Below are positions 10,870-28,704 of a stretch of DNA of 38,769 nucleotides, in pieces (position 1 is the stretch's first letter; every line of letters begins with the position of its first letter). This DNA is from a virus (taxonomy: Duplodnaviria; Caudoviricetes). The notes below the pieces were generated by a model, which saw nothing but the letters and a program-made list of their open reading frames with translations, did not search any database and was not told where the DNA came from. The DNA is taken from the IMG/VR virus record IMGVR_UViG_3300036802_000314, positions 1 to 38,769 of that record, one strand, 5' to 3'. The position numbers and the translations under genes were made by a program.

Positions 10870-11194
10870 GGAAGTCCAGGCTGCATTAAAGTCGGGTAAG
10901 CGATTTTTCAAAGATTGGAAGCTTAAAGATCCGGTTGAAGTGATAGCCTGGGGAAATGCATGGGTCAGATATAAATCGCCTATCATGACCCATTGGATAT
11001 CAACCAACATACGGACGTTTGCTATGGGCATAGATGGAGTATATAAGCAAGAAGGGGAGTGTTCTTCTGGGGGCGGTGGTACAAATGGAATTATATCCAA
11101 GGGTGACGGTTGCGGAGAAGGATACGGCAAGAGAGAAGCTGGAAGAGTACCCCGAAATGGTCCGAAAAATAAGAGTCTACGGAAACAAGAATAG
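10859..11194 (+). CDS. Hypothetical protein
   Basis: GGGAGG SD with GTG start; 3' end overlaps the next gene by ~110 bp. Confidence 0.45.
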   Translation: MKVKEVQAALKSGKRFFKDWKLKDPVEVIAWGNAWVRYKSPIMTHWISTNIRTFAMGIDGVYKQEGECSSGGGGTNGIISKGDGCGEGYGKREAGRVPRNGPKNKSLRKQE

Positions 11195-11444
11195 TTTGAC
11201 GGTGCTAGAAGCCAAAGAGCTGGAAGATTGCAGATGGAAGGTCAGAGAGATTGATGCTGCATTTGAACTTATCTTAGATGATGAGGTAGCGGCTATCATT
11301 AAGCACCGGTATGTAAATGCCCGTAAACATAAGCTGACCATTCTGAGATATACAGCGAGTAGCAGCAAGGCAACCATAAATAGGCGAATTGATGTTGGAG
11401 TGGAGACTATTGCCGAGCACTTGAAGCTGGCCGGAATCATTTGA
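11085..11444 (+). CDS. ArpU/RinA-like late transcriptional activator
   Basis: IDAAFELILDDEVAAIIKHRYV..SKATINRRIDVGVETIAEHL sigma-region-4-like HTH; located at the end of the early region. Confidence 0.75.
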   Translation: MELYPRVTVAEKDTAREKLEEYPEMVRKIRVYGNKNSLTVLEAKELEDCRWKVREIDAAFELILDDEVAAIIKHRYVNARKHKLTILRYTASSSKATINRRIDVGVETIAEHLKLAGII

Positions 11445-11827: not shown

Positions 11828-11871
11828 TGAGACTAAATTGAGACTAAGTTGAGACTAAAATGAGACAAGAA
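11828..11871 (+). promoter_or_regulatory. Four 11-bp tandem repeats TGAGACWARDW; probable late-activator binding site
   Basis: TGAGACTAAAT TGAGACTAAGT TGAGACTAAAA TGAGACAAGAA, downstream of the ArpU-like gene and upstream of the packaging genes. Confidence 0.7.
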
Positions 11872-12263
11872 TGGATTTACAGTAGGGACATAGGACGGAA
11901 CAACGTCCGGGTGTCCCTGCTGCCCCTTATCGCTGGCAGGACTCGTCAGAGCTGAATCAGTGATGATGCCCGTTGCAATAGCAGCAGATACCATAGGGGC
12001 GGAACTGTAAGCACAAGTAGCCAGTAGCAGTTATAGCGGCGGCCTGATGCGGGGGAAGAGAGTTTAATATCACTCTCGACGCGCTCCGCCCGGGCGCGTT
12101 ATGAGCATAGGGGATATGTTACGGCGAATACCGGACGTCACCATGCAAATACGGGCATTACATTATGAATTGAGTAAGGCGCTGCAAAGAGAGTAACAAT
12201 CCACCCAAGCCGTGTGAGAGTCGCGGTTAGCAGCCCTTTACTGAGTGCATAATGCTCAGGGAT

Positions 12264-12285
12264 AATCCCAAGCGTTTGGTAATTT
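12264..12285. repeat. Dispersed palindrome copy 2
   Basis: AATCCCAAGCGTTTGGTAATTT. Confidence 0.75.
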
Positions 12286-12298
12286 AATATGCAGGAGC

Positions 12299-12323
12299 GG
12301 GTCGCTGAAAAGCGGCTCTTTTT
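12299..12323 (+). terminator. Intrinsic terminator
   Basis: GGGTCGCT-GAAA-AGCGGCTC-TTTTT. Confidence 0.75.
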
Positions 12324-12948: not shown

Positions 12949-13134
12949 GGTGCGGGTGCGTGTGAGCCCGATCTTTGACTATTTTTTATTGAAAAAAATC
13001 ACTGTGCACTGTGCATCTTGAGGGGGTGTTTTTGGCTTGGATTCCATAGTAAAAATGATTGATAAAACCTTATGTATCAGCGCATCGTACACATCTGAAC
13101 TGTTTGGGGTCCACCGGAACACACTTGCACAGTG
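12925..13134 (+). other. Lambda-like cos site (cosQ, cosN and candidate cosB repeats)
   Basis: GGGTCCT at 12925 matches lambda cosQ; CGGG-N10-CCCG dyad at 12953-12970; CACTGTGCA at 13000 and 13007, inverted at 13126. Confidence 0.65.
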
Positions 13135-13570
13135 GGTCAAGTTGGGAATGCCTAAAGCTGCCAATGGTTGGTACCCTCTAAAAGAGTGTTTTGATTGGGT
13201 GCAGAACTATCGCGGAACCTCAGATTCCGAGGATGAAGATGAAACCACACCAAAGACGACAGCGGGGAAGAAGCTTCACTATGAAGCCAAATTAAAGGAG
13301 CAGCAAGCGGAAGCGGCAGAGCTGAAGAATGCTATTTCCAAGGGTGAATATATCCCTCGGGAAGAAGTTGTCAGTGAACTTCAACGTTTCTTTACAACGT
13401 TGAAGCGATCTATGACTGGCTACAGCCGCCGGATTGCAATGGAGATTGCACCATTCGTTGATCCGGATCAGGTGCGCGTCATTGAACAAAGCATCAATGA
13501 CACGACAAATGCAGTCCTTCTGCAAATGTCCGTCAGGGGTGTTTACAGTGCCAGAAAAGGCAAAAAGTAA
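13037..13570 (+). CDS. terS: Terminase small subunit (Nu1-like)
   Basis: ELFGVHRNTLAQWVKLGMP..YPLKECFDW winged HTH, then coiled coil and GEYIP. Confidence 0.88.
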   Translation: MDSIVKMIDKTLCISASYTSELFGVHRNTLAQWVKLGMPKAANGWYPLKECFDWVQNYRGTSDSEDEDETTPKTTAGKKLHYEAKLKEQQAEAAELKNAISKGEYIPREEVVSELQRFFTTLKRSMTGYSRRIAMEIAPFVDPDQVRVIEQSINDTTNAVLLQMSVRGVYSARKGKK

Positions 13571-15368
13571 ATGGCCGGATTGGCTGGCATCAGCCTTCCA
13601 GGTTCTTCGACCACCTGAAAAGTTAACAGTTTCTGAATGGGCTGATCGGTACAGAGTTTTAGACAGCAAAAGTGCTGCTGAACCGGGGCAATGGTCCACT
13701 GATCGGACACCATATCTTCGCGGAATCATGGATTCTTTTACAGATCCTCGCGTGGAGGAAATTATTTTTCTTAAACCTACGCAGGTCGGAGGGACTGAAT
13801 GCCTAAATAACATGTTGGGTTACGTGGTTGCTCAGGACCCTAACCCGGCCCTTGTCGTTTATCCGCATATTGAATTAGCCAAATTCACATCAGAGAATAG
13901 GCTGCAGCCAATGATGGAGCTGAGTCCGGCCCTGCAGGAAAGATTCCACAGCAATCAGAGTAAGGATCTGGAGTTGCAGTTTGATGGGATGTACGCCGTT
14001 ATCGCTGGGGCGAACAGCCCTGCATCCCTTTCCAGTAGGCCAATTCGGTTTTTATTCATGGATGAGGTGGATAAGTACCCGCGAACTTCAGGTAAAGAAG
14101 CTGATCCGAGATCGCTTGCTCGCGAGCGGACGAAGACCTTCCCCTTCAATAAAAAAATCATGCAGACCTCGACGCCAACATTGCGCAATGGTCCGATCTG
14201 GCAAGCTTGGGAAGGTGCAGACGTCAAGCTTCAATACTACGTCCCCTGTCCGCACTGCGGTCAGTTTCACACGTTCAAGTTCAAGCAAATTAGGTTTGAC
14301 AAGGCGCTTGAACCGGAGGATATCAAGGCTACCGCCTATTATGAATGTGAAAGCTGTAATGGGATTATACGTGATGCACACAAGCCAACCATGTTGCGTG
14401 CTGGCGAATGGCGAACACCGGAAGGTTCTACCATAAGAAAGCGAAAAACTGGATTTTGGATGAATGCAATATATAGCCCATGGGTTAGATTCGGAGACGT
14501 TGCTTCTGAATTCATTACATCCAAACGAGTTCCTGAAGAGCTGATGAACTTTATTAATAGCTGGCTGGCGGAGCCTTGGGAAAACACTCAAATCAAACTG
14601 AATAGCGATAAGGTGCTGGACAAAACTAGCGGATATGACGAAGGGATTGTTCCAGACAGGACTATTTTGCTGACCGGAGGTGTGGATGTTCAAAAGGATC
14701 GTTTTTATTATTCGATCCGTGCTTGGGGTGAGGGCATGACGAGTCACAATATCCGACATGGTGTCGTTGAAACATGGCCACAAGTCGAGGACGTGATGAA
14801 CATTTCTTACTGCAGCCGGGACGGAACGGAGTATTTCGTTAACCTTTGTGCGGTTGACTCGGGTTATAACGCCGATGACACCTATGATTTTTGTGTAAAA
14901 AATAGCGAATGGGCCGTTTCTATCAAGGGTTCAAACAATCCATTGCCAGCAAAGTACAAGCTGACAAAGATTGACCGGGAGGAAAAGGGGATGTATGGAA
15001 TATCCCTGTACCTGGTGGATGGCGGATATTATAAAGATTTCATTTCGAATCGTTTGGTCCGCAAGCCAGATGAAACTGGTGGGTGGTTTGTATATGAAGA
15101 TTGTGATTTGGAATATGCGGAGCAAGTCACCGCTGAGGAAAAGGTCAAGGAGAAGCGGGGGCGTGTTGAAGTAGAGGTGTGGCGCCCGAAAACAGCCCAT
15201 GCCGATAACCACTATCTTGACTGCGAAGTGTACGCTGCTTTTGCTGCTGATTGTTTGGGTATCAGGTATATGCGGTATGAAGAGCCGGAAGAAGCGCCCA
15301 AGCCTCAGACAGAGAAGCCGACAGAGAGTAAAAAGTCTTGGCTACAAGGGGGTGATTCGTGGTTATGA
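13548..15368 (+). CDS. terL: Terminase large subunit (lambda gpA family)
   Basis: TVSEWAD, KPTQVGGTE, DEVDKY, STPT, CPHC, GVDVQ, NHYLDC; probable GTG start at 13548. Confidence 0.95.
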   Translation: MPEKAKSKWPDWLASAFQVLRPPEKLTVSEWADRYRVLDSKSAAEPGQWSTDRTPYLRGIMDSFTDPRVEEIIFLKPTQVGGTECLNNMLGYVVAQDPNPALVVYPHIELAKFTSENRLQPMMELSPALQERFHSNQSKDLELQFDGMYAVIAGANSPASLSSRPIRFLFMDEVDKYPRTSGKEADPRSLARERTKTFPFNKKIMQTSTPTLRNGPIWQAWEGADVKLQYYVPCPHCGQFHTFKFKQIRFDKALEPEDIKATAYYECESCNGIIRDAHKPTMLRAGEWRTPEGSTIRKRKTGFWMNAIYSPWVRFGDVASEFITSKRVPEELMNFINSWLAEPWENTQIKLNSDKVLDKTSGYDEGIVPDRTILLTGGVDVQKDRFYYSIRAWGEGMTSHNIRHGVVETWPQVEDVMNISYCSRDGTEYFVNLCAVDSGYNADDTYDFCVKNSEWAVSIKGSNNPLPAKYKLTKIDREEKGMYGISLYLVDGGYYKDFISNRLVRKPDETGGWFVYEDCDLEYAEQVTAEEKVKEKRGRVEVEVWRPKTAHADNHYLDCEVYAAFAADCLGIRYMRYEEPEEAPKPQTEKPTESKKSWLQGGDSWL

Positions 15369-15592
15369 CGGAAGAAGAACGTTTAGCTTTACTCCGTGAA
15401 CAGCTGGTAGAAGTGCGAAAGGCAATCAGCGCTATACTCGGTGGTGCACAGGAATATCGTATTGGCACCCGCAGTATTAAGCGGCCGGATCTTGGGCTGC
15501 TTTATGAAGAGCAGACAAGGCTAGAAAAGGAAATTAGCGCCATTGAAGGCGGCGGCGGTATTTTCCGTGTCGCTTATTTTGAAGGGAGGTGA
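15359..15592 (+). CDS. Head-tail joining protein (gpW-like)
   Basis: GAQEYRIGTRSIKRPDL; between terL and portal. Confidence 0.75.
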   Translation: MVMTEEERLALLREQLVEVRKAISAILGGAQEYRIGTRSIKRPDLGLLYEEQTRLEKEISAIEGGGGIFRVAYFEGR

Positions 15593-17109
15593 ACAAACTG
15601 AACTGGTTAGACCGATCTATTGCGACGGTAAGCCCGCGGTGGGCCTATAAGCGTTTGGCTTGGCGTAATGGGATGAGCGTATTTGATGCAGGGGGTCGCG
15701 GGCGGCTCAATCAAGGCTGGAATCCTTCGGCGTCACCGAACGAGCAGCAGAAGCGGGGAGAACGTGCTTTAATCCGCGCAAGAGCACAGGATTTAGAACA
15801 CAATAGCGATATTGCCGGGGGAATTCTGCAGGCGTTTCAGCGTAATGTGACCGGGACCGGGATCATGCTGCAGGCTAAAGTCCCTCATACTGTTTTGGGG
15901 AACACTCAAGGCGAGATCAATCGGAACATTGAAGATCTTTGGAAGGAATATTGTAAGGCGGAAAACATTGATATCACAGGGACTCAATCGCTGGAAGAGA
16001 TGGCCGATATGATAATTCGGCGCTTTTATGTTGATGGCGGAATCTGTATCGTCAAAGTTTATGTCAAGGACAGTGAGTATCCATTTAAATTGCAAATCCG
16101 ATCGGTTGACGAGCTGAATTCATTAGTTCAACCAAGTGAGGGTAAACGAATTGTAGAGGGAATTGAGCTAGACGACTACAATCGTCCAGTAGCTTATCAC
16201 TTCAAAAAGGTATCGGATGGCTATTTTATGAACCCAGCAGAAACGGTTCGTATTCCGGCCAAGGATGTAATTTTTCTTTTCGAGAAGACCGATCCGCGGC
16301 AAGTGAGGGAAATATCCAAGCTCGTTACAGCATTACCGCGGATCAAGGATGCTAATCAATTTATTGAAGCGGTATCTATTAAAGAGCGTGTGCTTGCCTG
16401 CATGTCCGTATTTATTAAGAAGAGTACACCGCAGAGCGGCTTGGGTCGTGGTGTTCGGAGCGGAGGCGGACAAGAGATTGATTACAGTGGAGTGTCGCTT
16501 TCTCCTGGAATGATTGGAGAGCTGAATCCAGGTGACGAGGTACAGACGGTCATACCAACAGGTCAAGCATCCAATACCAAGGAATTTATTACGACGCTGG
16601 TCCGCATGATTGCCGCCGGTCTTGGATTAAGTTATGAATCGGTGTCGAGGGATTTGTCACAAGTTAATTATTCTTCAGCCCGGCAGGGACTGATTGAAGA
16701 TCGTAAGCTGTATAAAAAGTTGCAGAAAATGATTATTGATCGTGTGCTGCGGCCTGTATATTTGGAGTTTTTGGAGTCCATGTACCTGAAAGGGAAGGTT
16801 GATCTACCGGGATATACCAAGGACAAGAGCATCTACACCGCTCATGTTTGGGTTCCGCCGGGCAGCACCTGGATTGATCCCAAAAAGGAAGCGGACGCCA
16901 ATAAGACGGCGCTTGACTCTAACCAGGATACGCTTGCCCGTATTTGTGCGGAGCGGGGTGAGGATTGGCGGGATGTGGTGGTACAGCGTGCCGCAGAGAT
17001 TAATCTTATTAATGAGCTGATCGGGGAACGGTCAGGAAAGGAGGAACAACCTAATGAGAAAGAGAGTCCGGACGACGATGAAGAAGAGTCTTCCGACGAC
17101 GCTGCATAG
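15589..17109 (+). CDS. Portal protein, lambda family
   Basis: IRARAQDLEHN, GIELDDYNRPVAYH, DLSQVNYSSAR, WIDPKKE. Confidence 0.95.
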   Translation: MNKLNWLDRSIATVSPRWAYKRLAWRNGMSVFDAGGRGRLNQGWNPSASPNEQQKRGERALIRARAQDLEHNSDIAGGILQAFQRNVTGTGIMLQAKVPHTVLGNTQGEINRNIEDLWKEYCKAENIDITGTQSLEEMADMIIRRFYVDGGICIVKVYVKDSEYPFKLQIRSVDELNSLVQPSEGKRIVEGIELDDYNRPVAYHFKKVSDGYFMNPAETVRIPAKDVIFLFEKTDPRQVREISKLVTALPRIKDANQFIEAVSIKERVLACMSVFIKKSTPQSGLGRGVRSGGGQEIDYSGVSLSPGMIGELNPGDEVQTVIPTGQASNTKEFITTLVRMIAAGLGLSYESVSRDLSQVNYSSARQGLIEDRKLYKKLQKMIIDRVLRPVYLEFLESMYLKGKVDLPGYTKDKSIYTAHVWVPPGSTWIDPKKEADANKTALDSNQDTLARICAERGEDWRDVVVQRAAEINLINELIGERSGKEEQPNEKESPDDDEEESSDDAA

Positions 17110-19105
17110 AGCTGCTGGACCGCCTGAGAATCAGTTATCTCGTACGCTGACCTTCAGCAAAGATAGCATTAATGAAGAAGATCGTACTGCAGAGCTTTCG
17201 TTCTCGTCGGAAGCACCATATGAACGCTATTTCGGTAGTGAAATTTTAAGCCATGACCCCGGAGCGATTGACCTACAGAGGTTAACCGATGTCGGGGTTT
17301 TGTTATTTGCACATGGCCGTAATTCTAGATACGGCAATATGCCGATTGGAGTTATTCAAAAGGTATGGGTGGACGACAACGAACGAAAGGCAAGGGCATT
17401 AGTCCAGTTTGATGATGATGAGGACAGTGACAAGGTGTTCCAGAAAGTAAAAAAAGGGATCATCAAGGGAGTATCTGTAGGGTACGAAGTGTCTTCATGG
17501 GAGGAAGTTAAAGCCGGAAAGATATCTGCCAATGGCCGCCATGCTGGGCCTGCTTATGTGGCGCTTAAGTGGCAACCATTTGAAATCAGTATTGAACCAA
17601 CTCCGGCAGATCCGTCCGTTGGTGTTGGGCGTAGTTATAACCAAAATGAGAGCGAGGATGAAGGAATGAAGGGACTTAAAATGCTGGCTTTGGCCGCACA
17701 GGGATTAATGTATGCACCAGATGGTGGAGCAGGAATTGGCGGCGGCGCTGGAACGCCTACACCACCAGAGGGAGAGGGGCAACGAGGAGCTGCTGCACCG
17801 CCTGGAATTGACCCAGCAGTATCTGCACAACAAGGGGCGACAGCAGAACGGTCCCGGGTCACAGAAATCAATTCTCTATGCCGTAACTTCGGTATGGACG
17901 CAACACCATATATTGAAGACGGTAGCACCGTGGACAAAGTGAAGGATGCGATTCTTCAGAAACAGATCGCGGACAAAGCGCCACAGCGGTCAGCCATTCA
18001 GGTAGGAGCGGAAGATCAAGATAAGTTCCGGGCAGCCGCAACGGATGCGTTGCTGTTGCGGGCGGCGCGTACAGTTTCAAAGCCAGCAGCGGGGGCAATG
18101 GAGCTACGTGGTTTGCGCTTGCGTGACCTGGCCGTCGAATGCTTGATTCGTGCTGGTGAATCTGGAGCACATCTGCTGCGTGATGAAGAACTGCTGAAGC
18201 GTGCGCTGAGCCCAGATACTACTTTCCAAGGCATTATTTCCAATGCCGCCAATAAAACACTGTCTCAGTCGTACCAAGAAGCCCCAACCACATTCCAGTA
18301 TTGGACCGGGAAGGGTAGCAACTCCGATTTCAAGGCAGCAGAACATTACCGCATTTCCGAAGCTGGGAACTTGGAGCTGAAACCGCAAAATGGAGTTATC
18401 CCTTATGATACAGCGATGCAAGACGAAAAGGTCACAAAAGCAGTGCTGACATACTCCAAACGGTGGGGCTTTACCCGGGAAGCGTTTATTAATGATGATT
18501 TGAGCATGTTGTCCCGGGTGCCTGCTGCTTACGTAATTGCGGCTAAGCGTGGTGTAAACAAACTTGTTTATCAGCTGTTGGCATCCAATCCACTGATTTT
18601 TGATAACAAGAACCTATTCCATGCAGATCATAATAACTTGGGAACGGCAAGCGTGATTAATACTGTCTCTATGAGTGAAGCCCGAACAAAAATGCGTACA
18701 CAGAAGGATCAGCGGGGCATTTCTACACTCAATATCGCTCCAAAGTATTTACTTTCTCCAGCAGAGTTGGAGACTGCAGCCGTACAATACTTGCGTTCTG
18801 AAGCTGATCCGGCGGGAGCTCATAGCGGTGTGGTTAACGTATTCCGGAATTCGTATGAGGTGATTGTGGATGCGGAGCTGGATCAATATTCTTCTACCGC
18901 CTGGTATCTAGCTGCTGATGCGAACATTGCGGATACTGTGGAGGTAACTTATCTACGTGGTCAAGAGGAACCGACCCTAGAAACAGACATTCCTTTTGAT
19001 CGGTTGGGTATGGATTTCCGTATCTATTTTGATTACGGTGTAACGCTACTGGATTCACGTGGTTTGTTTAAAAATGCTGGCGTAGCACCAGGAGGTGGAG
19101 AATAA
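17054..19105 (+). CDS. Fused prohead protease / scaffold / major capsid protein
   Basis: HK97-type protease (LFAH, GVSVGY, EISIEPTPADPSVG) followed by capsid domain (FTREAFINDDL, LFHADHNN). Confidence 0.9.
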   Translation: MRKRVRTTMKKSLPTTLHRAAGPPENQLSRTLTFSKDSINEEDRTAELSFSSEAPYERYFGSEILSHDPGAIDLQRLTDVGVLLFAHGRNSRYGNMPIGVIQKVWVDDNERKARALVQFDDDEDSDKVFQKVKKGIIKGVSVGYEVSSWEEVKAGKISANGRHAGPAYVALKWQPFEISIEPTPADPSVGVGRSYNQNESEDEGMKGLKMLALAAQGLMYAPDGGAGIGGGAGTPTPPEGEGQRGAAAPPGIDPAVSAQQGATAERSRVTEINSLCRNFGMDATPYIEDGSTVDKVKDAILQKQIADKAPQRSAIQVGAEDQDKFRAAATDALLLRAARTVSKPAAGAMELRGLRLRDLAVECLIRAGESGAHLLRDEELLKRALSPDTTFQGIISNAANKTLSQSYQEAPTTFQYWTGKGSNSDFKAAEHYRISEAGNLELKPQNGVIPYDTAMQDEKVTKAVLTYSKRWGFTREAFINDDLSMLSRVPAAYVIAAKRGVNKLVYQLLASNPLIFDNKNLFHADHNNLGTASVINTVSMSEARTKMRTQKDQRGISTLNIAPKYLLSPAELETAAVQYLRSEADPAGAHSGVVNVFRNSYEVIVDAELDQYSSTAWYLAADANIADTVEVTYLRGQEEPTLETDIPFDRLGMDFRIYFDYGVTLLDSRGLFKNAGVAPGGGE

Positions 19106-19308
19106 TGTTAATTTTAAAGGAACCGCTAAACCATGGGGGCAGATTGTTTGAGGTAGGTGAAAATGTTAGGGGACGTTTACCTTTGGAGCTCACTCAGCAG
19201 CTACAAGAAATGGGGCATCTGGAAGAGCGGGAGGAAGAAAAATCGGAGGACGAAGGAGATACTTTGTCTGATGATTCAAAATCACAGCGCGGGTCTAAAC
19301 GTGGTTAG
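19105..19308 (+). CDS. Small head-associated hypothetical protein
   Basis: TAATG-coupled to the capsid gene. Confidence 0.6.
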   Translation: MLILKEPLNHGGRLFEVGENVRGRLPLELTQQLQEMGHLEEREEEKSEDEGDTLSDDSKSQRGSKRG

Positions 19309-19615
19309 CTTCAAAGATTTCGTTTTCCAAGATATCGGCGTGTTTCTTAACGAAGAAGAATTTGCAGACAAATTTGTAATCGACAAAAAAGAAGTTACTG
19401 CTGTGCTTGATCAAGCCATCGACAGTGATCACCCCCTGGCCTATGCCGAGGGGGTATCTTTGGTTACACATGTGCTATATGTGAGTGAGGCGGAATTAGG
19501 GTACATCCCAGAGTCTAACGAGTGGATGGTTATTAACGACCAGCGGTATCGCGTGGATCGCGTAGGTGACGATATGGGAATGCTTACGATCTCTTTGGAG
19601 GCGAATGTCACATGA
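19301..19615 (+). CDS. Head closure / head-tail connector
   Basis: FLNEEEFAD..INDQRYRV..DDMGMLTISLEAN; synteny. Confidence 0.7.
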   Translation: MVSFKDFVFQDIGVFLNEEEFADKFVIDKKEVTAVLDQAIDSDHPLAYAEGVSLVTHVLYVSEAELGYIPESNEWMVINDQRYRVDRVGDDMGMLTISLEANVT

Positions 19616-20181
19616 TTGATGTCCAGGCAGAGGCAAGAGGCATCCGAGAGGCACTAAGAAGGGTGGGGTCATTGGATACGGATGTACGCAAGTCCTTTTA
19701 TTCGGCGCTCAACCGTACCTCTCAACGTCTAAAAACTGAGTCTGGCCGCAAAGCAAAGGAAACGTACATCGTGAAGTCCAAGGCGGTTACAGATCAGGTG
19801 GTGCTCAAGCGGGGCAGCGTCAGTAATCTATCCAGCGAACTCCGCTGGAAAGGCAGTAACATTCCTCTGATGCAGTTTAAAACAAATCCTAAGGTAGTTT
19901 CCTCCAAACGTCCACGTGCCTTAAAAGCTGCGGTTAAGCGTGCAGGAGGTAACAAGAAAGTGGATGGTGCGTTTCTTGCTCGTATGAGAAACGGGCATAT
20001 CGGAGTCTTTCGACGCAGCGCACGTCGCCGCCTACCCGTGGAGGAATTATATGGCCCGGCAGTACCAATCATGCTCAATAATCCAGAAGTCACCGAGCAC
20101 CTGGAGAGTGTGGCCATTGAAGAAATGGACAAACGACTCGAGCATGAGCTTAACCGCCGTTTAGGAGGTGGAACGTCATGA
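19612..20181 (+). CDS. Minor tail protein (gpZ-like)
   Basis: ALNRT...GAFLARMRNGHIGVFRR..LPVEELYGPAVP. Confidence 0.8.
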   Translation: MIDVQAEARGIREALRRVGSLDTDVRKSFYSALNRTSQRLKTESGRKAKETYIVKSKAVTDQVVLKRGSVSNLSSELRWKGSNIPLMQFKTNPKVVSSKRPRALKAAVKRAGGNKKVDGAFLARMRNGHIGVFRRSARRRLPVEELYGPAVPIMLNNPEVTEHLESVAIEEMDKRLEHELNRRLGGGTS

Positions 20182-20612
20182 CGCCAGTTATGTTGATGAT
20201 GGCAATCAAAGATTTTTTGGGAAAAGAGTTGGCTGACGATGCTGTGACCATTCCAGCGGTGCATCTTGGTGCATTGCCGAGCAAGACTGCAGAAAACCGG
20301 AATGATCCAGTATTCCCTCTTATTATTGTTCGTCCCATGGAGGGTGATAGTGACGATAAAGAAAGCCGAGCTCAAGTTAAATTATTGTTTGGGACACAAT
20401 CCGATGATGATTCTGGTTTTGTTGATGTGCTGAACCTTATGGAACGGGTACGCATTTTGCTGATGAGGCAACGGATCATAGATAAAAAATTCCGGATTGA
20501 ATCAAATTGGAAGTGGCAGTTTTTAGAGGATCAGCCGGAACCACAATGGATTTGTCAGGCGATAACGACTTGGACACTTCCGCAAATTAGACAGGAGGTT
20601 AAGCACTTATGA
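20178..20612 (+). CDS. Tail terminator/completion protein
   Basis: FPLIIVRP motif; synteny before sheath. Confidence 0.65.
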   Translation: MTPVMLMMAIKDFLGKELADDAVTIPAVHLGALPSKTAENRNDPVFPLIIVRPMEGDSDDKESRAQVKLLFGTQSDDDSGFVDVLNLMERVRILLMRQRIIDKKFRIESNWKWQFLEDQPEPQWICQAITTWTLPQIRQEVKHL

Positions 20613-20899
20613 GTAATACAAAAGAAACGAAGGCTACTGAGGTTGTGGTTGTGGAGATCCCCGCCCGCATTTACCTGGGACCGAATTTACCAGGTGGACG
20701 TCTATTGCAATCGACGGTATTCAGCGAAGAAATCCCATTTCATTTGAAGGCATTGCTTGATGAACAGCCGGATGTTGCAGCTTTGATTGTTCCAATTGAT
20801 GAAATGGCTGACGTTCAAGTGCGAATTATGCAAAAAGGAACGCCTGATCATGTAGCTTATCAGGCAATTTTGAGAGGAGGCGTTGTTGGTGGCATTTAA
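20609..20899 (+). CDS. Hypothetical tail-associated protein
   Basis: IYLGPNLPGG; coupled ORF. Confidence 0.65.
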   Translation: MSNTKETKATEVVVVEIPARIYLGPNLPGGRLLQSTVFSEEIPFHLKALLDEQPDVAALIVPIDEMADVQVRIMQKGTPDHVAYQAILRGGVVGGI

Positions 20900-22337
20900 A
20901 CACGGTGTTTCAATTATCGAACAACCTACGTCAGTACTCGCACCAGTGCAGGCAACGAGCGGTATTCCGTTTGTGGTGGGTACTGCACCAATGCATTTGG
21001 CAACAGCCCCTGTGGCGGCTAATACACCTGTGCTTGTTTATACGTATGCCGAAGCAGTGGCTGCACTTGGTTATTCGGATGATTGGTCGAAATATACACT
21101 ATGTGAAGCAATTTATTCGCATTTTGTATTGTACGGTATGTCTCCAATGATCTTGGTTAATGTACTGGACCCGACATTAACTGCTCATAAAACAGCAGTC
21201 GTGCCGGTAGCCGTGCCGGTAAGTAATCGGGTTGCTACTTTAGCTGTGGATGGGGTTATCCTGTCGTCCGTGGTTGTTAAATCTAGTGACGGAGCAACGA
21301 CCTACTCAGCAGCTACCGATTACACTGCAGCTTTTAACGATGCAGGCCAGGTTGTCATTACAACAAAAGGGACACTTCTTGCTTCTGTATCGTCTCTACA
21401 GGTGGGATATAGCAAGTTAAATCCGGCAGCTGTCACATCGTCCGATATTATCGGTGGTACAACATCATCCGGTGCATATACGGGCTTTGAGTTGGTAAAT
21501 CAAGTGTTCTCACGTTTTGGTATATTGCCTGATCTGCTGTTAGCCCCAGGATGGTCACATACGCCTACGGTTGCAGCTGTCATGAAGGCAAAAGCAGGGA
21601 ATATCAACGGTAACTTCAAAGCTATGGCTTTGACTGACCTTGATGCAGCTCAGTCCTATACAGATATTGGAGCTTGGAAATCGACCAATAACTACACGGG
21701 CGAGTTTCAAATTCCAACGTATCCCAAATTAACATTAGGGGATAAGGTCTTTCACTATTCGACGCAACTGGCCGGATTAATAGCGGCTACTGACACAGCA
21801 AACGGTGGTATCCCTTTTGTATCACCATCTAATAAATCGCTTCAAGCGGATGGAACCGTTTTGGCCAACGGAGCAGATCTGTATTTAGGGCATGACCAAG
21901 CTAGCTACCTCAACAGTTTAGGCATTATGACAGCCTTAAACCTTGGAGTGAGTGGCTGGAAGTCTTGGGGGAATAACACTGGGGCTTTCCCGGGAAAAAC
22001 AGACCCTAAAGATAGCTTTATTCCGATCCGCCGAATGTTCAACTGGATTGGAAATAGCATTGTTTTGACTTACATGCAAAAGGTTGATGATCCGATGGAT
22101 AAGCGGCTTATCGCTGCTGTTACAGATTCGATAAATATCTGGCTGAATGGTCTTACGGCGTCCAGCGCACTGCTTGGAGGTCGCGTTGAGTTTCTAGAAT
22201 CTGAAAATCCGGTAACGAGCTTGATGTCCGGCAAAATTGCCTTTCACGTCTATCTTACGCCTCCAGGTCCAGCACAGGAAATTTCGTTCTTGCTTGAATA
22301 CGACACAACTTACCTAGCTGCAATGTACGCAGCGTAG
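20889..22337 (+). CDS. Tail sheath protein
   Basis: FKHGV, VVGTAP, LLAPGWS, SPSNK, WGN..FIPIRR. Confidence 0.92.
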   Translation: MAFKHGVSIIEQPTSVLAPVQATSGIPFVVGTAPMHLATAPVAANTPVLVYTYAEAVAALGYSDDWSKYTLCEAIYSHFVLYGMSPMILVNVLDPTLTAHKTAVVPVAVPVSNRVATLAVDGVILSSVVVKSSDGATTYSAATDYTAAFNDAGQVVITTKGTLLASVSSLQVGYSKLNPAAVTSSDIIGGTTSSGAYTGFELVNQVFSRFGILPDLLLAPGWSHTPTVAAVMKAKAGNINGNFKAMALTDLDAAQSYTDIGAWKSTNNYTGEFQIPTYPKLTLGDKVFHYSTQLAGLIAATDTANGGIPFVSPSNKSLQADGTVLANGADLYLGHDQASYLNSLGIMTALNLGVSGWKSWGNNTGAFPGKTDPKDSFIPIRRMFNWIGNSIVLTYMQKVDDPMDKRLIAAVTDSINIWLNGLTASSALLGGRVEFLESENPVTSLMSGKIAFHVYLTPPGPAQEISFLLEYDTTYLAAMYAA

Positions 22338-22352
22338 AAAGGAGAGAATTAC

Positions 22353-22871
22353 ATGCCGAAAAGATCAGAACGGGTTATTGATTATTCAGTGTTTTTAAAT
22401 GGTTCAGAATACTTGGGTACGGCTACGGCTGACCTCCCTGAAATTGCGTTTTTATCTGAAACTACTAAAGGTGCTGGGATTGCGGGTGAAATTGATGCTC
22501 CCTCCCCGGGGCAGACCAGTGCAATGACGCTTACGCTGAACTGGAACACTGTGGAGAAGGCATCTCTAAAGCTTCTTGCTCCTGTGGTTCACGCTCTTGA
22601 CCTCCGCGCATCTATTCAGAAATTTGATACTGGAACGAACGAGTATATGGAATCCGCACTCAAAGTCACCATTCGCGGACGCCCTCTTAGTGGTGGGTTA
22701 GGCGGTCTTGAGGCTGCAACAGCAATGAGTTCGACAACTGCGTTTTCAGTGAATTATCTCAAAGTCTTCATTGATGGTGAGGAAATCATTGAAATTGATA
22801 AGTTGGCTTACATTTACAAAGTACTTGGTGTAGATTATCTAGCCAAAACTAGAGCTAATCTGGCATTGTAA
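22353..22871 (+). CDS. Tail tube protein (P2 FII-like)
   Basis: LPEI..GAGIAGEID..EIIEIDKL..GVDYL. Confidence 0.88.
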   Translation: MPKRSERVIDYSVFLNGSEYLGTATADLPEIAFLSETTKGAGIAGEIDAPSPGQTSAMTLTLNWNTVEKASLKLLAPVVHALDLRASIQKFDTGTNEYMESALKVTIRGRPLSGGLGGLEAATAMSSTTAFSVNYLKVFIDGEEIIEIDKLAYIYKVLGVDYLAKTRANLAL

Positions 22872-22877
22872 ATTATT

Positions 22878-22899
22878 AATCCCAAACGCTTGGGAATTT
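22878..22899. repeat. Dispersed palindrome copy 3
   Basis: AATCCCAAACGCTTGGGAATTT, intergenic before the chaperone RBS. Confidence 0.75.
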
Positions 22900-22914
22900 G
22901 AGGAGGAACATGGA

Positions 22915-23223
22915 ATGTCTGAGGAAACGCAAGGCTTGGCAGAGGTTTATTCCTTTGCGAAGCCTTTTACATTTGAAGGGCAAGAGATAAAGGAAGTAAC
23001 GCTAAATTTTGATGATTTAGAAGGAAACGACATCATCGCTTGTGATCGGCAGTATCGCGCGGAACAGAGAGGCGGAATATCCATTGCTCCTGAAATGGAT
23101 AAAGCATACCTGGCATATGTAGTTGCTAAAGCAGCGGGAGTTCACGTTGACTTGATTCGTGCAGCCAAGGCTAAAGACTTTACTGCATTGACATTGAGGG
23201 CAAGAAATTTTTTGTTGCTGTAG
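22915..23223 (+). CDS. Tail assembly chaperone (gpE/gp41-like)
   Basis: Between tube and tape measure; ends NFLL. Confidence 0.85.
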   Translation: MSEETQGLAEVYSFAKPFTFEGQEIKEVTLNFDDLEGNDIIACDRQYRAEQRGGISIAPEMDKAYLAYVVAKAAGVHVDLIRAAKAKDFTALTLRARNFLLL

Positions 23224-23372
23224 GCTGTGGAGACAGTAAGGTGATTAAAGACCTTGCTGTCTCTCTAGCCATGGTTACCTATACTCCGGTCTCTTACTTT
23301 TTGAGCTTGCCTCTCGATGAACTCATAGATTCGGTGGACAGGGTAGTTCGATTACGGAAGGGGAGAACATAG
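22915..23372 (+). CDS. -1 frameshift-extended chaperone (E+E' analogue)
   Basis: Slippery AAATTTTTTG at 23205-23214; -1 frame open to TAG at 23372, 3 nt before the tape measure start. Confidence 0.8.
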
Positions 23373-23375
23373 AAC

Positions 23376-26324
23376 GTGGCAGGAAGAAGTAGAGAATATG
23401 ATATCGCCTTTCGGCTAAACGGACTCATGGACCCTTCATTCCGTCAATCCATGGGCAATGCTGAACGTCATATCGAGGAACTGGAACGCGCATTAAGGGA
23501 AATGTCTCGGCGAGGAGATTTGGACGATGTAAGGCGTGATGCAGATCGAGCAGATGATTCTTTACGAGATTTGAGGGACAGTGCTGGTGGCTTTGGTGAT
23601 ACACTCCGACAAGTTGGTGAGTACACCGGAGCCTTCGCATTAATTCAAGGTGCTGCTGGCGGTATGCAAAATATCGTTGGAACCATAGCTGATCAGTCTG
23701 ACGCTATGGCTCAGCTCCAGGCTGCAACTGGTGTAACTGCCGAAGAAATGCTTGCTATGAAGGATAGCGCTGAATCCCTTTATAATGATCGTCTTGGCGA
23801 GGATTTCAACGATCTGGGTGCTGCTCTTGCAACAGTTCGGCAGGTAACGCAAGCTACAGGCGCTGAGTTAGAAAGTACGACTAAAAACGCCATTGTGTTT
23901 AGAGATGTGTTTGGCGAGGATATTACCCAAAGCATCAAGGCATCAGATACAATGATGAAAAACTTCGGTGTAACCTCAGAGCAAGCTTACAACCTCTTGG
24001 CTCAAGGAGCGCAGAATGGACTTAATAAGTCGGATGAACTGATTGATACTGCTAATGAATACAGCGTGTACTTTAAAACCTTGGGTTACGATGCTGAGGA
24101 GATGTTTGATCAATTCGCAGCTGGACTTGACGCAGGCGCTTTTAATCTAGATAAAGTTGGGGATGCAGTCAAAGAATTTGGTATCCGGGTTAAGGATGGT
24201 AGTGAAAGTACTCAAACGGCTATGGCCATGTTGTTTGCTCCGGATGATATCGAAGAATTTACTCAAAAGCTAACAAAGGGATCTACGAAATCAGCCGAGT
24301 ACATGGAATTGCTGAAGCATGTATCTAAAGACACCGCTGCTGAATTAGTCAAGAACTTAAAAGCAGGCGGCACTAAATCTGCAAAGGCTTATGAAGCATT
24401 GCAAGGAATCATGGGTCAAGGTATTGATATTTTAGATGGAATTGCTGATGGATCAGTCAAAGGTAAAGACGCCATGCAACAAGTTATTGATAAGCTTGGT
24501 GAGATTGAAGACCCAATTCAAAAGAGCACGATCGGTGTTGCATTGTTCGGTACTCAGTTTGAGGATATGGAAGCTGGTGTTATAGCTGCATTAGGCACTG
24601 CCCGTGAACAGTTTGATATGACTAAAGCGACGATGGAGGAAGTGGCCAAGGTCAAATACGATACCTTGAGCAAGGACTTTCAAGCGGTAGGACGTCAGTT
24701 AATGACCGAGCTCGTAATACCAATTGGTGAGGATTTAATGCCAGCACTTCAAGGATTTGCTGACTGGATGGGCGATAATACTGATCTATTAAAGGCTATA
24801 GCGTTAGTAGCCCCAGCTGCGTTGATAGGAAAGTCAGTATCCAAGATCGTCAAGGGTTTTGGTTCGATTACGTCAGCAGCTGGAGGAGCTGGAGGGGCTG
24901 CAGGAGGTTTTACAAGAGCGTTGGCGCTGTTGACTAATCCTGTTGGTATTGCAATAACAGGAGTATCCGCCCTTACATTGGGGGTTATGGCATATAAGAA
25001 GCATCAGGAGAAGGCGCGTCAAGAACTGATTCACATGGGCGACACATTGAAGGAGTCAGGGGAACAGTTTGAGGAATCGAATAACAAGGCTCAGTTAACA
25101 AACGATTTGATATGGCAATACGAGGATTTGGGTCGGAAAATAGCGGCTAACTCCACTAGTTCGGGTAACTTGGCAGCTAACTCTGAGAAGCTTGCTGACC
25201 AGCAACAAAGGCAAAAAGATGTTGTCCAGAAATTACAAGAATTATACCCCAATACACTTAGTAATTATGACGTGGAAAACGGAAAGATCGAGACTAAACT
25301 TGGTTTACTTAAACAGGAGTCAGATGCAGAGGTTGCTCTTAAAAAGCTACGTTTAGAGAAGGACGTAGCTGCGGGAATAGAAAAGCTACCTGATATAGAA
25401 AGTGAGATTCGTTCACTCCAAGAACAGGTTTCAGCGGCTCAGGATAGAAAAGATGCTCTTGAAGCTGCTATACCATCACTAAAAGGATACGCTGTTGAAT
25501 ACGAGCGCCTTATGATGGCTCCTGGTGGCGAGGAAAAACAAAAGCAGTTAGATGCGCTGGTTCAGAAAGTCAAGGAAGCGGGGGAATCAATTGATCTCCT
25601 TATAGATGACAGCAGACAATTGGATATGTTGAACGGTATTATTGGGGATTTGGATTCTGAAAAAGTCAACTTGTTAAGTAGCCTTGTGACCAACAGTGAG
25701 GATCTTCAAAAAACCAATGAGGGTTATCAGGCACTATATGATAAGCAACGAGAACTCATTGAGATGGACTTGGGGGGGACATTAGGAGAATACGCTCAAA
25801 AATTTGGAAGTCTAGCAGATGAAGGAAAAGCAAAATTTAACGAATCAATTACAGTGGCAAAGAACCTTAACGATCAAATGAATTTGATCCCTTCAGAGAA
25901 AAAAATAAACATCGAATTTTTGTATAAACATACTGGTCAATACATGCCAGAAGTATCGAAAAAAGTAACCGATATAACAAACTCACTGTTGCCGAAACAA
26001 TTCCGTATGGATCAATATGCAGAAGGCGGTATAGCAACAAAGCCTAGTATTTTTGCTGAGGCTGGTCCAGAAATCGCAATCCCAATTAACAATAAGCCTC
26101 GCTCTCGCTCATTGTTAGACATGGCGAATGATCTTATGGGTTACACCAAAAACGAGAACCGTGAAGGGGATATTATAATCCATAATGCACCTGTTATTAC
26201 GCTTCCAGGGGCAGATCCTTCGGTTATGAAATTAGTGAAAGAGGCTTTAAAGCAGTCAGAAGACAATTTAGAGCGCAAGCTTAAGGAAATCATTGAACAA
26301 CAAAGGCGGGTGAGTTTTCAATGA
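23376..26324 (+). CDS. Tape measure protein
   Basis: 982 aa, helical; GAFNLDKVGDAVKEF, ALFGTQFED; C-terminal YAEGG..AEAGPE. Confidence 0.92.
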   Translation: MAGRSREYDIAFRLNGLMDPSFRQSMGNAERHIEELERALREMSRRGDLDDVRRDADRADDSLRDLRDSAGGFGDTLRQVGEYTGAFALIQGAAGGMQNIVGTIADQSDAMAQLQAATGVTAEEMLAMKDSAESLYNDRLGEDFNDLGAALATVRQVTQATGAELESTTKNAIVFRDVFGEDITQSIKASDTMMKNFGVTSEQAYNLLAQGAQNGLNKSDELIDTANEYSVYFKTLGYDAEEMFDQFAAGLDAGAFNLDKVGDAVKEFGIRVKDGSESTQTAMAMLFAPDDIEEFTQKLTKGSTKSAEYMELLKHVSKDTAAELVKNLKAGGTKSAKAYEALQGIMGQGIDILDGIADGSVKGKDAMQQVIDKLGEIEDPIQKSTIGVALFGTQFEDMEAGVIAALGTAREQFDMTKATMEEVAKVKYDTLSKDFQAVGRQLMTELVIPIGEDLMPALQGFADWMGDNTDLLKAIALVAPAALIGKSVSKIVKGFGSITSAAGGAGGAAGGFTRALALLTNPVGIAITGVSALTLGVMAYKKHQEKARQELIHMGDTLKESGEQFEESNNKAQLTNDLIWQYEDLGRKIAANSTSSGNLAANSEKLADQQQRQKDVVQKLQELYPNTLSNYDVENGKIETKLGLLKQESDAEVALKKLRLEKDVAAGIEKLPDIESEIRSLQEQVSAAQDRKDALEAAIPSLKGYAVEYERLMMAPGGEEKQKQLDALVQKVKEAGESIDLLIDDSRQLDMLNGIIGDLDSEKVNLLSSLVTNSEDLQKTNEGYQALYDKQRELIEMDLGGTLGEYAQKFGSLADEGKAKFNESITVAKNLNDQMNLIPSEKKINIEFLYKHTGQYMPEVSKKVTDITNSLLPKQFRMDQYAEGGIATKPSIFAEAGPEIAIPINNKPRSRSLLDMANDLMGYTKNENREGDIIIHNAPVITLPGADPSVMKLVKEALKQSEDNLERKLKEIIEQQRRVSFQ

Positions 26325-26530
26325 CCACCACATATAGAACAGTTCAAGGCGATACCTGGGATGGTATCGCCTTTAAGTTGTACAAGAGTGAGCAGCTAAT
26401 GACATTGCTTATTAATGCAAACCCAGACCATGCAGGAACCGTTGTGTTTTCAGGAAATGTAATTCTAGTTGTACCGGATAAGCCGCTGGACGCCTCTGAG
26501 ACGCTTCCGCCGTGGCGCAGGGAGGAATAA
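26321..26530 (+). CDS. Tail protein X (LysM-like)
   Basis: YRTVQGDTWDGIA..LINANP..LPPW. Confidence 0.9.
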   Translation: MTTTYRTVQGDTWDGIAFKLYKSEQLMTLLINANPDHAGTVVFSGNVILVVPDKPLDASETLPPWRREE

Positions 26531-26531
26531 T

Positions 26532-27563
26532 ATGGAGCTGATGCAAGACGCCCGCAGGGCGGTTCTAGTGTTATCATACAACGGCAAAGACGTTACAAAG
26601 GATATCGCCGAAGCATTAACTGATTTTCAGTTTAACGATGCGGCTCCAGGCACGCTTGATAATCTCTCTATCACACTGGAAGACAGGGAACGGAACTGGC
26701 AAGGTCCTTGGTCACCGACAGAAGGGGATCGTATCAAAGGGGAAATTCGTACAATCAACTGGGATGGCCCGGGCGAGATTAAAAAGCTTCCCCTTGGCTC
26801 ATTTGAAGTTGACTCTTTTGATTTTAAGGGACCACCGGATACGGTATCTATTAAAGCTATATCATTGCCTGTCAGTTCGGATATTCGGCAGGAAAAACGC
26901 TCGAAGTCTTGGGAGAAGGTGACGCTAAAAACGGTTGCCGGGGAGATTTCCAAACGAGCTGGAATGAAGCTACTTTATGAGGGGTTAGACAATCCCTCCT
27001 ATGACAGATTGGAACAGTCCCAACTATCTGACCTTGCTTTTCTATTGGAAACAGCGACTAAGGAAGGTATCGCTATTAAAGTTTCCAACGGAACTCTCGT
27101 ACTCTTCGACGAGTCCGCATATGAAAAAAAATCTGCGATTACCACAATTAAACGTGGAGAGGCGAACGTAAAAGGTTATGGATTTACATGGGGTGTAGCT
27201 TATACAGCGTATCGCGCGTGTGAAGTGTCTTATACAGACAGTAAGTCTAAAAAGACTGTAAAGGTGACCTATACACCGCCGGGAGCTCCCAAAAGTGGAC
27301 CTGTACTAAAGATCAACGAGCAGGCAGATTCTCAAGCAGCAGCACTCAAGTTAGGTCGAAAAAGACTGCGAGAGAAGAACAAAGAGGCGGGAAGAGGGAC
27401 ATTAAGCCTTATGGGTGATATCCGTATGGCTGCGGGACTGACGATCAATATAAAAGGTTGGGGACGATTTGATGGTAAATATATTATCGTATCTGCCAAT
27501 CATGTCATAGGCGGTAGCGGGTTCACAACTGATTTGGAAATCAGAAAGGTATTGGGGTGGTAG
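26532..27563 (+). CDS. Baseplate hub (P2 gpD / late control D family)
   Basis: DNLSITLED, LGSFEVD, QSQLSDLAFL, GRFDGKY. Confidence 0.88.
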   Translation: MELMQDARRAVLVLSYNGKDVTKDIAEALTDFQFNDAAPGTLDNLSITLEDRERNWQGPWSPTEGDRIKGEIRTINWDGPGEIKKLPLGSFEVDSFDFKGPPDTVSIKAISLPVSSDIRQEKRSKSWEKVTLKTVAGEISKRAGMKLLYEGLDNPSYDRLEQSQLSDLAFLLETATKEGIAIKVSNGTLVLFDESAYEKKSAITTIKRGEANVKGYGFTWGVAYTAYRACEVSYTDSKSKKTVKVTYTPPGAPKSGPVLKINEQADSQAAALKLGRKRLREKNKEAGRGTLSLMGDIRMAAGLTINIKGWGRFDGKYIIVSANHVIGGSGFTTDLEIRKVLGW

Positions 27564-27564
27564 C

Positions 27565-27951
27565 ATGATTGTGATCGGTCAAGTATCAACGTCAGATAAA
27601 ACGGTGGGCAGTGTGAGGGTAGTCTTTCCAGATCGTGACGACTTGGTATCTGGCGAACTTCCTGTTATTACGCGCGGAGGCTGGGGGCGAGGAAACGCCG
27701 TACCACAGCCTGGAGAAACTGTACTATGTGTCTTTTTGAATAACAGTCGTAGTTCAGGTTATTGTCTAGGCACTTATTATGGATCTGAGGATAAGCTACC
27801 CGGGACAGCTGATCAGCATGGTATATGGTTTGAAGACGGCAGTTATGTTTACTATGACCGTGCAACTAAGACCCTTAATCTCAAAGCAGCCAGCGGCGTA
27901 CAGATTGACGGAAATCTGAAGGTAACCGGCACGATAACGAGTGGAGGATAA
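27565..27951 (+). CDS. Baseplate spike (gpV-like)
   Basis: VRVVFPDRDDLVS..PQPGETVLCVF..FEDGSYVYYD. Confidence 0.85.
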   Translation: MIVIGQVSTSDKTVGSVRVVFPDRDDLVSGELPVITRGGWGRGNAVPQPGETVLCVFLNNSRSSGYCLGTYYGSEDKLPGTADQHGIWFEDGSYVYYDRATKTLNLKAASGVQIDGNLKVTGTITSGG

Positions 27952-27975
27952 GGCATGGGAAGCCAAGATTATGTA

Positions 27976-28703: not shown

Positions 28704-28704
28704 C

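What the first reader, a model, noticed from the sequence alone, without database searches (positions are those of the whole stretch)
11875..12323. Candidate ~450-nt pseudoknotted RNA at the head of the late transcript
Seen: ~500 bp with no ORF >=60 aa in an otherwise gene-dense phage, starting right after the TGAGAC repeats and ending at a terminator. Nested 5' domain: TTACAGT 11877-83/ACTGTAA 12004-10 encloses AGGGACAT 11884-91/GTGTCCCT 11911-18 (with GGACG/CGTCC inside) and GCCCCT 11922-27/AGGGGC 11995-12000, extended by TATCGCTG/CAGCAGATA. A loop segment ATGCCCGT-TGCA (11966-77) pairs far downstream with TGCA..ACGGGCAT (12144-58), i.e. a pseudoknot or alternative fold. Further stems: GAGAGT/ACTCTC (12058-77), GACGCGCTC/GGGCGCGTT (12078-100), AGTAAGGCGCTGC/GCAGCCCTTTACT (12173-242) enclosing GCCGTG/CGCGGT, and CTGAG/CTCAG. 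Many G-U pairs favour the + strand and RNA-level selection. Known: large prophage-associated ncRNAs exist (GOLLD, ROOL), as do cis-acting antitermination RNAs (HK022 put, Bacillus EAR). Inference: either a stand-alone abundant phage RNA of a class I cannot name, or an antiterminator needed to read through the 12299 terminator into the ~25 kb virion operon.
Basis: partly seen in the sequence, partly recalled or inferred. Interest (0 to 1): 0.82.

Follow-up and report, generated by a model that had tools for sequence, protein, structure and literature searches.

The report
Phage late-gene antiterminator RNA with off-switch
This gene-free stretch at the head of a prophage's late genes holds a conserved RNA fold that is a divergent relative of the bacterial EAR RNA; it likely lets RNA polymerase run through stop signals into the virion genes, and an extra conserved helix is predicted to switch it off unless transcription starts at the late promoter.

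Summary
Real and conserved, but not one 450-nt RNA of a new class. It is the late-promoter leader of a likely Paenibacillus myovirus prophage: activator repeats, a −10-like hexamer (11878-83), an EAR-related core (11909-12077), variable 3′ modules and a terminator (12299). The window misses Rfam, but compact phage homologs hit RF01735 epsC/EAR (17 of 17 loci, 44-107 bits), and models built from them rank 11908 first in the window. A helix P0 (11882-91/11911-20) excludes EAR P1, and its 5′ strand lies upstream of the predicted start. P1 is predicted in 3 of 92 read-through versus 76 of 92 late-start transcripts. Best model: a cis antiterminator active only when transcribed from the late promoter. 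Start site, expression and function are untested; full-length folding disfavours the EAR fold here. No paper on phage EAR was found in ten searches. This scan reported the same kind before on other DNA (e1-3439194, e1-9518244, e1-5353015).

The parts
11085..11444 (+). Putative late-gene activator (119 aa from ATG 11085; longest ORF starts 11034)
   Evidence: phrog_21810, unknown function. 41 of 58 ORFs upstream of homologs share it and 17 of 58 hit phrog_248 'transcriptional activator'. A profile of its relatives finds the ArpU-family protein of L269 at E 1.8e-4. The window protein itself hits no ArpU/RinA model.
11828..11866 (+). Four TGAGAC hexamers at 11-bp period; inferred activator sites
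   Evidence: in-register arrays of at least four sequence types in homologs; such repeats are Ltr binding sites in PMC3753634
11878..11883 (+). TACAGT, inferred -10 element; predicted start about 11889-11891
   Evidence: 11 nt after the last repeat across a variable spacer. TA(A/C/T)AGT at this distance in 81 of 92 phage elements versus 1 of 59 eps-type EARs. Start site not mapped.
11882..11920 (+). P0, predicted anti-EAR helix 11882-91/11911-20, enclosing hairpin P0a 11893-97/11904-08
   Evidence: 96.8% of 714 cells paired (P0 and P0a together); pair 11887-11915 covaries in 8 of 51 sequences and is not part of EAR P1. Upstream duplex <= -10 kcal/mol in 86 of 92 phage versus 3 of 59 eps EARs.
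11909..11940 (+). EAR pseudoknot (11909-11/11924-26) and P1 (11916-20/11936-40)
   Evidence: G-C to C-G swap in 2 of 51; P1 compensatory changes in 5 and 7 sequences; matches SS_cons_1 of the published epsC alignment; bridge hits
11942..12053 (+). EAR P2 (11942-45/12050-53 and 11946-54/12040-47) closing a three-way junction
11958..12007 (+). K-turn-like arm in place of EAR P3 (11958-61/12004-07, tandem G.A, 11968-71/11997-12000)
   Evidence: First helix 92 of 92 cells paired with U-G, U-A and C-G variants. Motif in 22 of 92 elements. K-turn label from recalled consensus, not from a call.
12011..12037 (+). Arm in place of EAR P4
   Evidence: 87 of 92 cells paired, no compensatory change
12058..12077 (+). 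EAR P5 hairpin
   Evidence: 4 of 6 pairs with two-sided changes
12078..12156 (+). Phage-specific 3' domain: hairpin 12080-98 whose loop (12088-92) pairs with 12152-56; variable arm 12104-47
   Evidence: Found in 48 of 92 elements; the inner four pairs are intact in all 48, with 12 and 3 C-G to U-A swaps at two positions
12161..12260 (+). Accessory long hairpin; exchangeable slot that holds a tRNA T-arm-like hairpin in close relatives
   Evidence: z -3.03; 5 of 92 elements; 3 of 301 genomes; replaced in L069 and L054
12299..12325 (+). Predicted intrinsic terminator between the leader and the late genes
   Evidence: a terminator is predicted within about 600 nt in 64 of 91 elements versus 23 of 89 in the next window downstream (own heuristic)
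13037..36971 (+). Late operon, terS to endolysin (about 24 kb), ending at a predicted terminator at 37011

Best explanation
The element is a divergent phage copy of the EAR RNA fold that likely acts in cis as a processive antiterminator for the 24-kb late operon, and it is predicted to be active only in transcripts that start at the inferred late promoter. Steps: (1) Inferred: the activator binds the repeats and RNA polymerase starts near 11890. (2) Predicted: that transcript lacks the 5' strand of P0, folds the EAR pseudoknot and P1 as it is made, then P2, the junction arms and P5. (3) Inferred by homology: EAR modifies the polymerase so that it reads through 12299 into the virion and lysis genes. 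(4) Predicted: early transcripts reading through from upstream include 11882-89, form P0, lose P1 and the pseudoknot, and stop at 12299. The leader thus works as an insulator that depends on the start site. Shown: conservation, covariation, homology to RF01735, gene context. My odds: EAR homolog 0.92; antiterminator of late genes 0.75; P0 as read-through off-switch 0.55.
For: Homology: 17 of 17 phage loci tested pass the RF01735 cut-off; 4 of 13 in an earlier set. An HMM of 21 Rfam-passing phage EAR cores gives 11909-54 as top window hit, E 2.9e-4. CM R1 gives 11908 as top hit, E 0.011, and finds 20 of 21 divergent homologs. Structure. Promoter geometry. One repeat array only and no + strand promoter match between 12325 and terS, so late expression would need read-through. 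Terminators follow the RNA (64 of 91) but rarely precede the promoter (8 of 90 in 300 nt). Switch: P1 predicted in 3 of 92 read-through, 76 of 92 late-start and 43 of 70 eps-type read-through transcripts. In the 30 new elements found with a pattern that contains neither P0 nor the promoter the counts are 2 and 23 of 30. P0 is kept across 26 different 7-mers of its 5' strand. EAR antiterminates distal and heterologous terminators (PMC7858274).
Against: The window fails RF01735 even at E<=1 per genome, and an HMM of 59 eps-type EARs misses it. The invariant P3/P4 junction letters of EAR are absent here. At full length P1 is predicted in only 5 of 22 k-turn-type and 14 of 51 canonical phage elements versus 43 of 59 eps EARs; pseudoknots and k-turns are not scored. 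No start site or transcript is shown. In RinA phages the mapped 5' end lies over 155 bp from the binding region (PMC3152322), so promoter geometry varies. Tail-only loci keep P0 but have no predicted leader terminator. Internal late-operon terminators are not above chance. Homologs are related, so counts are not independent events.
Confidence: 0.58

Rival explanations
1. An EAR-type antiterminator, but P0 is part of the late transcript (start further upstream) and is opened by a protein, ligand or pause, in the manner of lambda Q loading or a riboswitch.
For: P0 and P1 both covary and exclude each other whichever start is used; the start is unmapped; RinA promoter geometry is unusual.
Against: TAnAGT sits at a fixed 11 nt from the last repeat across a free spacer and keeps the T, A and final T of a -10 box in all 59 elements; no other conserved -10 candidate; the P0 strand coincides with the predicted -8 to +2 region in most elements.
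Confidence: 0.2
2. A stand-alone, trans-acting phage RNA (11890-12325), GOLLD/ROOL-like or a decoy for a host EAR cofactor; late genes are made another way.
For: Bounded by promoter and terminator; carries extra domains; tRNAs or T-arm motifs follow in 41 of 92 elements; terminated leaders would accumulate.
Against: The 3' half is not conserved; in tail-only loci the core runs into the first gene with no predicted terminator; no second repeat array before terS; EAR-type elements are reported to act in cis; no GOLLD or ROOL hit.
Confidence: 0.12
3. In this lineage EAR has decayed or changed function; the expanded arm refolds with the P1 loop.
For: Junction letters lost; energy model favours the alternative fold by 5.8-14.6 kcal/mol; no Rfam score.
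Against: P1, the pseudoknot and outer P2 pair in 100% of cells in 23 k-turn-type homologs and the new arm covaries; the alternative helices are broken in many of them.
Confidence: 0.1

Closest known systems
EAR (eps-associated RNA; Rfam RF01735 epsC; Irnov and Winkler 2010, not read; Weinberg 2010, PMC2864571)
   Same: 5' pseudoknot, P1, long P2 closing a three-way junction, terminal P5 hairpin; sits ahead of a long operon; phage homologs reach 107 bits.
   Different: Promoter-proximal in a phage late leader rather than inside polysaccharide operons; preceded by P0 and P0a; P3/P4 replaced by a k-turn-like arm in this window; extra 3' pseudoknot domain; usually a terminator close behind.
HK022 put RNA
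   Same: Phage-encoded, promoter-proximal, RNA-only processive antiterminator (PMC8632103).
   Different: About 65-nt double hairpin in an E. coli phage; no sequence or structural homology seen; no start-site switch mentioned in the passages read.
Tn916 canT with terminator T1 (PMC11658703)
   Same: Cis RNA antiterminator paired with an insulating terminator in a Gram-positive mobile element.
   Different: There the switch is excision, which places canT upstream of T1; here it would be RNA folding set by the start site. No homology tested.
Ltr late activators (RinA, ArpU, LtrC; PMC3753634, PMC3152322)
   Same: Small activator gene, direct repeats, single late promoter upstream of terS; phage EARs also follow true ArpU (L269) and RinA (L271) genes.
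   Different: In RinA phages a terminator lies between rinA and terS and the activator is reported sufficient; no antiterminator RNA in the passages read.
Lambda pR'-tR' with Q (recalled)
   Same: Late promoter, leader, terminator, then virion genes.
   Different: Lambda uses a constitutive promoter and a protein antiterminator; here an activated promoter and a likely RNA antiterminator.

Membership tests
EAR / RF01735 epsC | Score at or above 42 bits with RF01735 | tested here: not met
   No hit in the window; met by 17 of 17 and 4 of 13 homolog loci
EAR / RF01735 epsC | Detectable homology through bridging members | tested here: met
   E 2.9e-4; E 0.011; 20 of 21; an eps-only HMM fails
EAR / RF01735 epsC | Pseudoknot of the first nucleotides with the P1 loop | tested here: met
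   3 of 4 pairs; two-sided swap in 2 of 51
EAR / RF01735 epsC | P1 hairpin with conserved loop | tested here: met
   5-6 bp instead of 7; compensatory changes
EAR / RF01735 epsC | P2 starting at CUCG, and P5 hairpin | tested here: met
EAR / RF01735 epsC | Canonical P3/P4 arms with the conserved junction letters | tested here: not met
   Replaced in the window; present in 51 of 92 phage elements. The three-way topology is kept.
EAR / RF01735 epsC | Location in a polysaccharide operon | tested here: not met
   Phage late leader; eps context seen for chromosomal hits
EAR / RF01735 epsC | Processive antitermination in cis | not testable with these tools
   Needs reporter or in vitro transcription
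GOLLD / ROOL large RNAs | Rfam model match and a conserved multi-domain body of several hundred nt | tested here: not met
   conserved core about 170 nt
HK022 put | About 65-nt double hairpin | tested here: not met
   Different architecture
Ltr-activated late promoter | Activator gene followed by direct repeats upstream of terS | tested here: met
   family assignment of the window protein is indirect
Ltr-activated late promoter | Activator binding and mapped start | not testable with these tools
   Only assembled RNA contigs were available

The most novel reading that the evidence does not exclude
Bacillota temperate phages and tail-only elements use an EAR RNA as a start-site-gated antiterminator. 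The same DNA gives an inactive RNA in read-through transcripts and an active one from the late promoter, because the promoter's own -8 to +2 bases form the inhibitory strand. The window's form, with the P3/P4 arms swapped for a k-turn arm, would show that the pseudoknot, P1, P2 and P5 are the polymerase-binding core. Phage origin of the eps EAR is not excluded.
Probability: 0.45. Interest if true: 0.86.

Novelty: new variant of a known kind. Interest (0 to 1): 0.7.

Why it matters
In 2021 only put and EAR were listed as other RNA-based processive antiterminators (PMC8191782), and EAR's mechanism was still open (PMC8632103). Dozens of phage variants show which parts of EAR can change, which makes its mechanism testable. 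They would add RNA-only antitermination to late control in Gram-positive phages, where the Ltr activator was reported sufficient. A switch set by the transcription start site is a simple way to tell read-through from true initiation and could serve as a portable insulator. All of this rests on function that is not yet tested.

Tried and rejected
Rfam on the window: nothing at gathering, four chance hits at E<=10. ARAGORN: none. GenBank phage collection: no match for the window element, its activator, or a canonical phage EAR. Relatives of terS in viral contigs: none. A pattern on the 12161-12260 module gave 2 true of 36 hits; its metagenome scan gave 2 unrelated hits. RNA data, searched with homolog L160: only assembled contigs with small shares, which cannot show start, strand or level. 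Tree of 80 EAR cores (21 phage, 59 eps): groups cluster (3 changes versus 18.7 shuffled) but there are few columns and the bootstrap did not settle, so no direction of transfer is claimed. RF01735 in 151 genomes of the class: 27 had hits; the 30 loci read had no phage context and mostly polysaccharide-operon neighbours; one further hit was phage-type (L237). Recalled resemblances to c-di-AMP, SAM and cobalamin riboswitches, T-box and ribozymes were dropped: no Rfam support and the motifs are not conserved. Rows left out of counts: L073, L094 (5' end lost), L083 (CRISPR spacer), L117, L136, L283 (chance), L284/L288 (contig edge); L164 and L275 were moved to the eps set. The automatic -10 pick was wrong for L250 and L287.

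Full report
Setting. The window is a provirus record with integrase at 1-1191, replication genes, and a late operon from terS (13037) through portal, head, contractile tail, holin and endolysin to 36971. Named relatives of the 11085-11444 protein are mostly from Paenibacillus, as are most true genome hits of the RNA, so the host is likely Paenibacillus. The finding lies between that gene and terS.

Observation. The gap without ORFs, the repeats, the terminator and the + strand folding signal (z -4.13) are real. Rfam and ARAGORN find nothing relevant.

Homologs. Pattern scans and genome searches gave 92 distinct phage-type elements after de-duplication. Of 58 upstream ORFs from the first set, 41 share phrog_21810 with the window gene and 17 hit a 'transcriptional activator' family. 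Of 101 downstream ORFs, 19 are integrase-family, 12 HNH, 6 tail sheath, 4 tail terminator and several terS. Elements also follow true ArpU and RinA genes (L269, L271); L269 has a terminase named from a Bacillus sp.. Some lead straight into tail genes rather than terS (L135, L089, L250, L287), which argues against a role in DNA packaging.

Identity. Compact homologs hit RF01735 epsC, which is EAR (PMC2864571): 4 of 13 loci above the cut-off and 17 of 17 (44-107 bits). The window does not. The link is transitive. An HMM of 21 Rfam-passing phage cores ranks 11909-54 first in 38.8 kb (E 2.9e-4), while one of 59 eps-type EARs misses it. CM R1 ranks 11908 first (17.5 bits, E 0.011) and finds 20 of 21 divergent homologs. 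I call it a divergent EAR homolog, not a formal RF01735 member.

Structure. In 51 distinct 5' domains, EAR P1 and the published pseudoknot are kept with compensatory changes. In 23 close homologs my model (pseudoknot, P1, P2, k-turn-like arm, P4-like arm, P5, P6, second pseudoknot) pairs in 96.2% of cells with 12 covarying pairs, 0 of 500 shuffles as high. Both structures were drawn from these sequences, and related sequences inflate such scores. The second pseudoknot is in 48 of 92 elements with its inner four pairs intact in all 48. The 12161-12260 hairpin is in 5 of 92; a tRNA T-arm motif follows in 41 of 92.

Promoter. Repeat arrays of at least four sequence types stay in register and, in most of 59 elements, end 11 nt before a TAnAGT-like hexamer across a free spacer. 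TA(A/C/T)AGT is at this distance in 81 of 92 phage elements and 1 of 59 eps EARs. I read it as the -10 box, giving a start near 11890. Direct repeats after the activator gene are the binding sites in related systems (PMC3753634); TP901-1 Alt binds at -76 to -32 (PMC3152322), against -62 to -24 here. The start is inferred, not mapped.

The switch. P0 pairs 11882-91 with 11911-20, which EAR needs for its pseudoknot and P1. P0 and P0a pair in 96.8% of cells, and one P0 pair that is not in P1 covaries in 8 of 51 sequences. Its 5' strand has 26 different 7-mers among 61 distinct pairs, and cognate duplexes average -12.8 against -8.3 kcal/mol when swapped. A duplex of -10 or better exists upstream in 86 of 92 phage and 3 of 59 eps EARs (the target window can include part of P0a). 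Folding just past P1 gives P1 in 3 of 92 read-through and 76 of 92 late-start transcripts, and in 43 of 70 eps EARs, which were folded with their upstream flank. My early patterns selected for P0, but the 30 new elements from a pattern without P0 or promoter give 2 and 23 of 30. Late-start transcripts cannot form P0 by construction. Terminators are predicted after 64 of 91 elements, in 23 of 89 windows further on, and in 8 of 90 stretches before the promoter (own heuristic). The window has one repeat array.

Against. At full length the energy model does not give the EAR fold for most phage elements (P1 in 5 of 22 and 14 of 51) but does for 43 of 59 eps EARs. In the window the gap is 5.8 kcal/mol with P1 enforced and 14.6 for my full model. 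The model scores no pseudoknots or k-turns and ignores folding order, but the phage P1 is shorter and an alternative or later refolded state is not excluded. Tail-only loci keep P0 without a predicted leader terminator. The EAR junction letters are lost here. No expression evidence was obtained.

Mechanism. Most likely the activator starts late transcription at about 11890; the RNA folds EAR and modifies polymerase to pass 12299 and the long operon; early read-through RNA forms P0 and stops at 12299. EAR function comes from secondary sources: it antiterminates distal and heterologous terminators (PMC7858274), appears to act alone though a host cofactor is not excluded (PMC8191782; PMC11658703), and its mechanism is untested (PMC8632103).

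Literature seen. Passages only: PMC3753634, PMC3152322, PMC7858274, PMC8632103, PMC8191782, PMC11658703, PMC2965217. PMC2864571: passages, supplement hits and the epsC alignment (file 5, parts 165-166); its files S1, S3 and S7 could not be read, so gene contexts of the seed members are unseen. PMC10690425: listing and supplement rows; no epsC or RF01735 in the files searched (files 1, 2 and 4 not searched), but three 58-64-nt Paenibacillaceae phage candidates could be pieces of this element and their alignments were unreadable. Irnov and Winkler 2010 and Goodson and Winkler 2018 were not held. Ten searches showed no paper on EAR in phages. The lambda comparison, the k-turn consensus and the name DUF722 for PF05263 (on homolog P0006) are recalled.

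Earlier scan notes. After reaching this reading I found three notes on other genomes with the same EAR assignment, one also naming an off helix. They are not independent evidence. What this window adds is the expanded, Rfam-invisible form with the replaced arm, and the controls against eps EARs.

Verdict. New variant of a known kind; interest 0.70.

Noticed in passing
window 7923, 12268, 22882, 36994, 38363: A near-palindrome (CAARCGYTTGG) at five sites, mostly intergenic; 8 strand matches against 0.11 expected; also in 16 of 92 element loci, the window's included. Looks like a protein-binding site; factor unknown.
   Followed up: partly
window 12161-12260; L069, L054, L086, L115: The slot after the conserved core holds either this long hairpin, a shrunken tRNA-like hairpin (acceptor plus T arm) or a full tRNA (L129). 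These could be processing signals for the leader.
   Followed up: partly
L083 (G013:C1:1507084-1507120): A CRISPR spacer matches the EAR P1 region of this element (36 of 37 nt by BLAST).
   Followed up: partly
L135, L089, L231-L234, L250, L287: EAR with P0 sits directly ahead of tail terminator and sheath genes, with no terS in between in the stretch read and no predicted leader terminator; possibly tailocin-like elements.
   Followed up: partly
L056, L121, L073, L094: Minimal or damaged copies: L056 ends in a T run right after P5; L121 has lost the 3' half; L073 and L094 have lost the promoter end.
   Followed up: no
window 35686-35710: Terminator-like hairpin just before the lysis genes; a candidate second target of antitermination, not above chance on its own.
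   Followed up: no
window 11445-11827: About 380 bp with two small ORFs (57 and 36 aa) separate the activator gene from the repeats; in most homologs the gap is 30-90 nt to the -10 box. 11445-11590 folds with z -2.99.
   Followed up: no
window 12928-12960: G/C-rich tract just before terS, also seen in L004; possible packaging-site signature (recalled, untested).
   Followed up: no
PMC3152322: RinA needs sequences over 155 bp upstream of the mapped terS 5' end, with a terminator in between; a leader with read-through and processing could explain this. Lead only.
   Followed up: no
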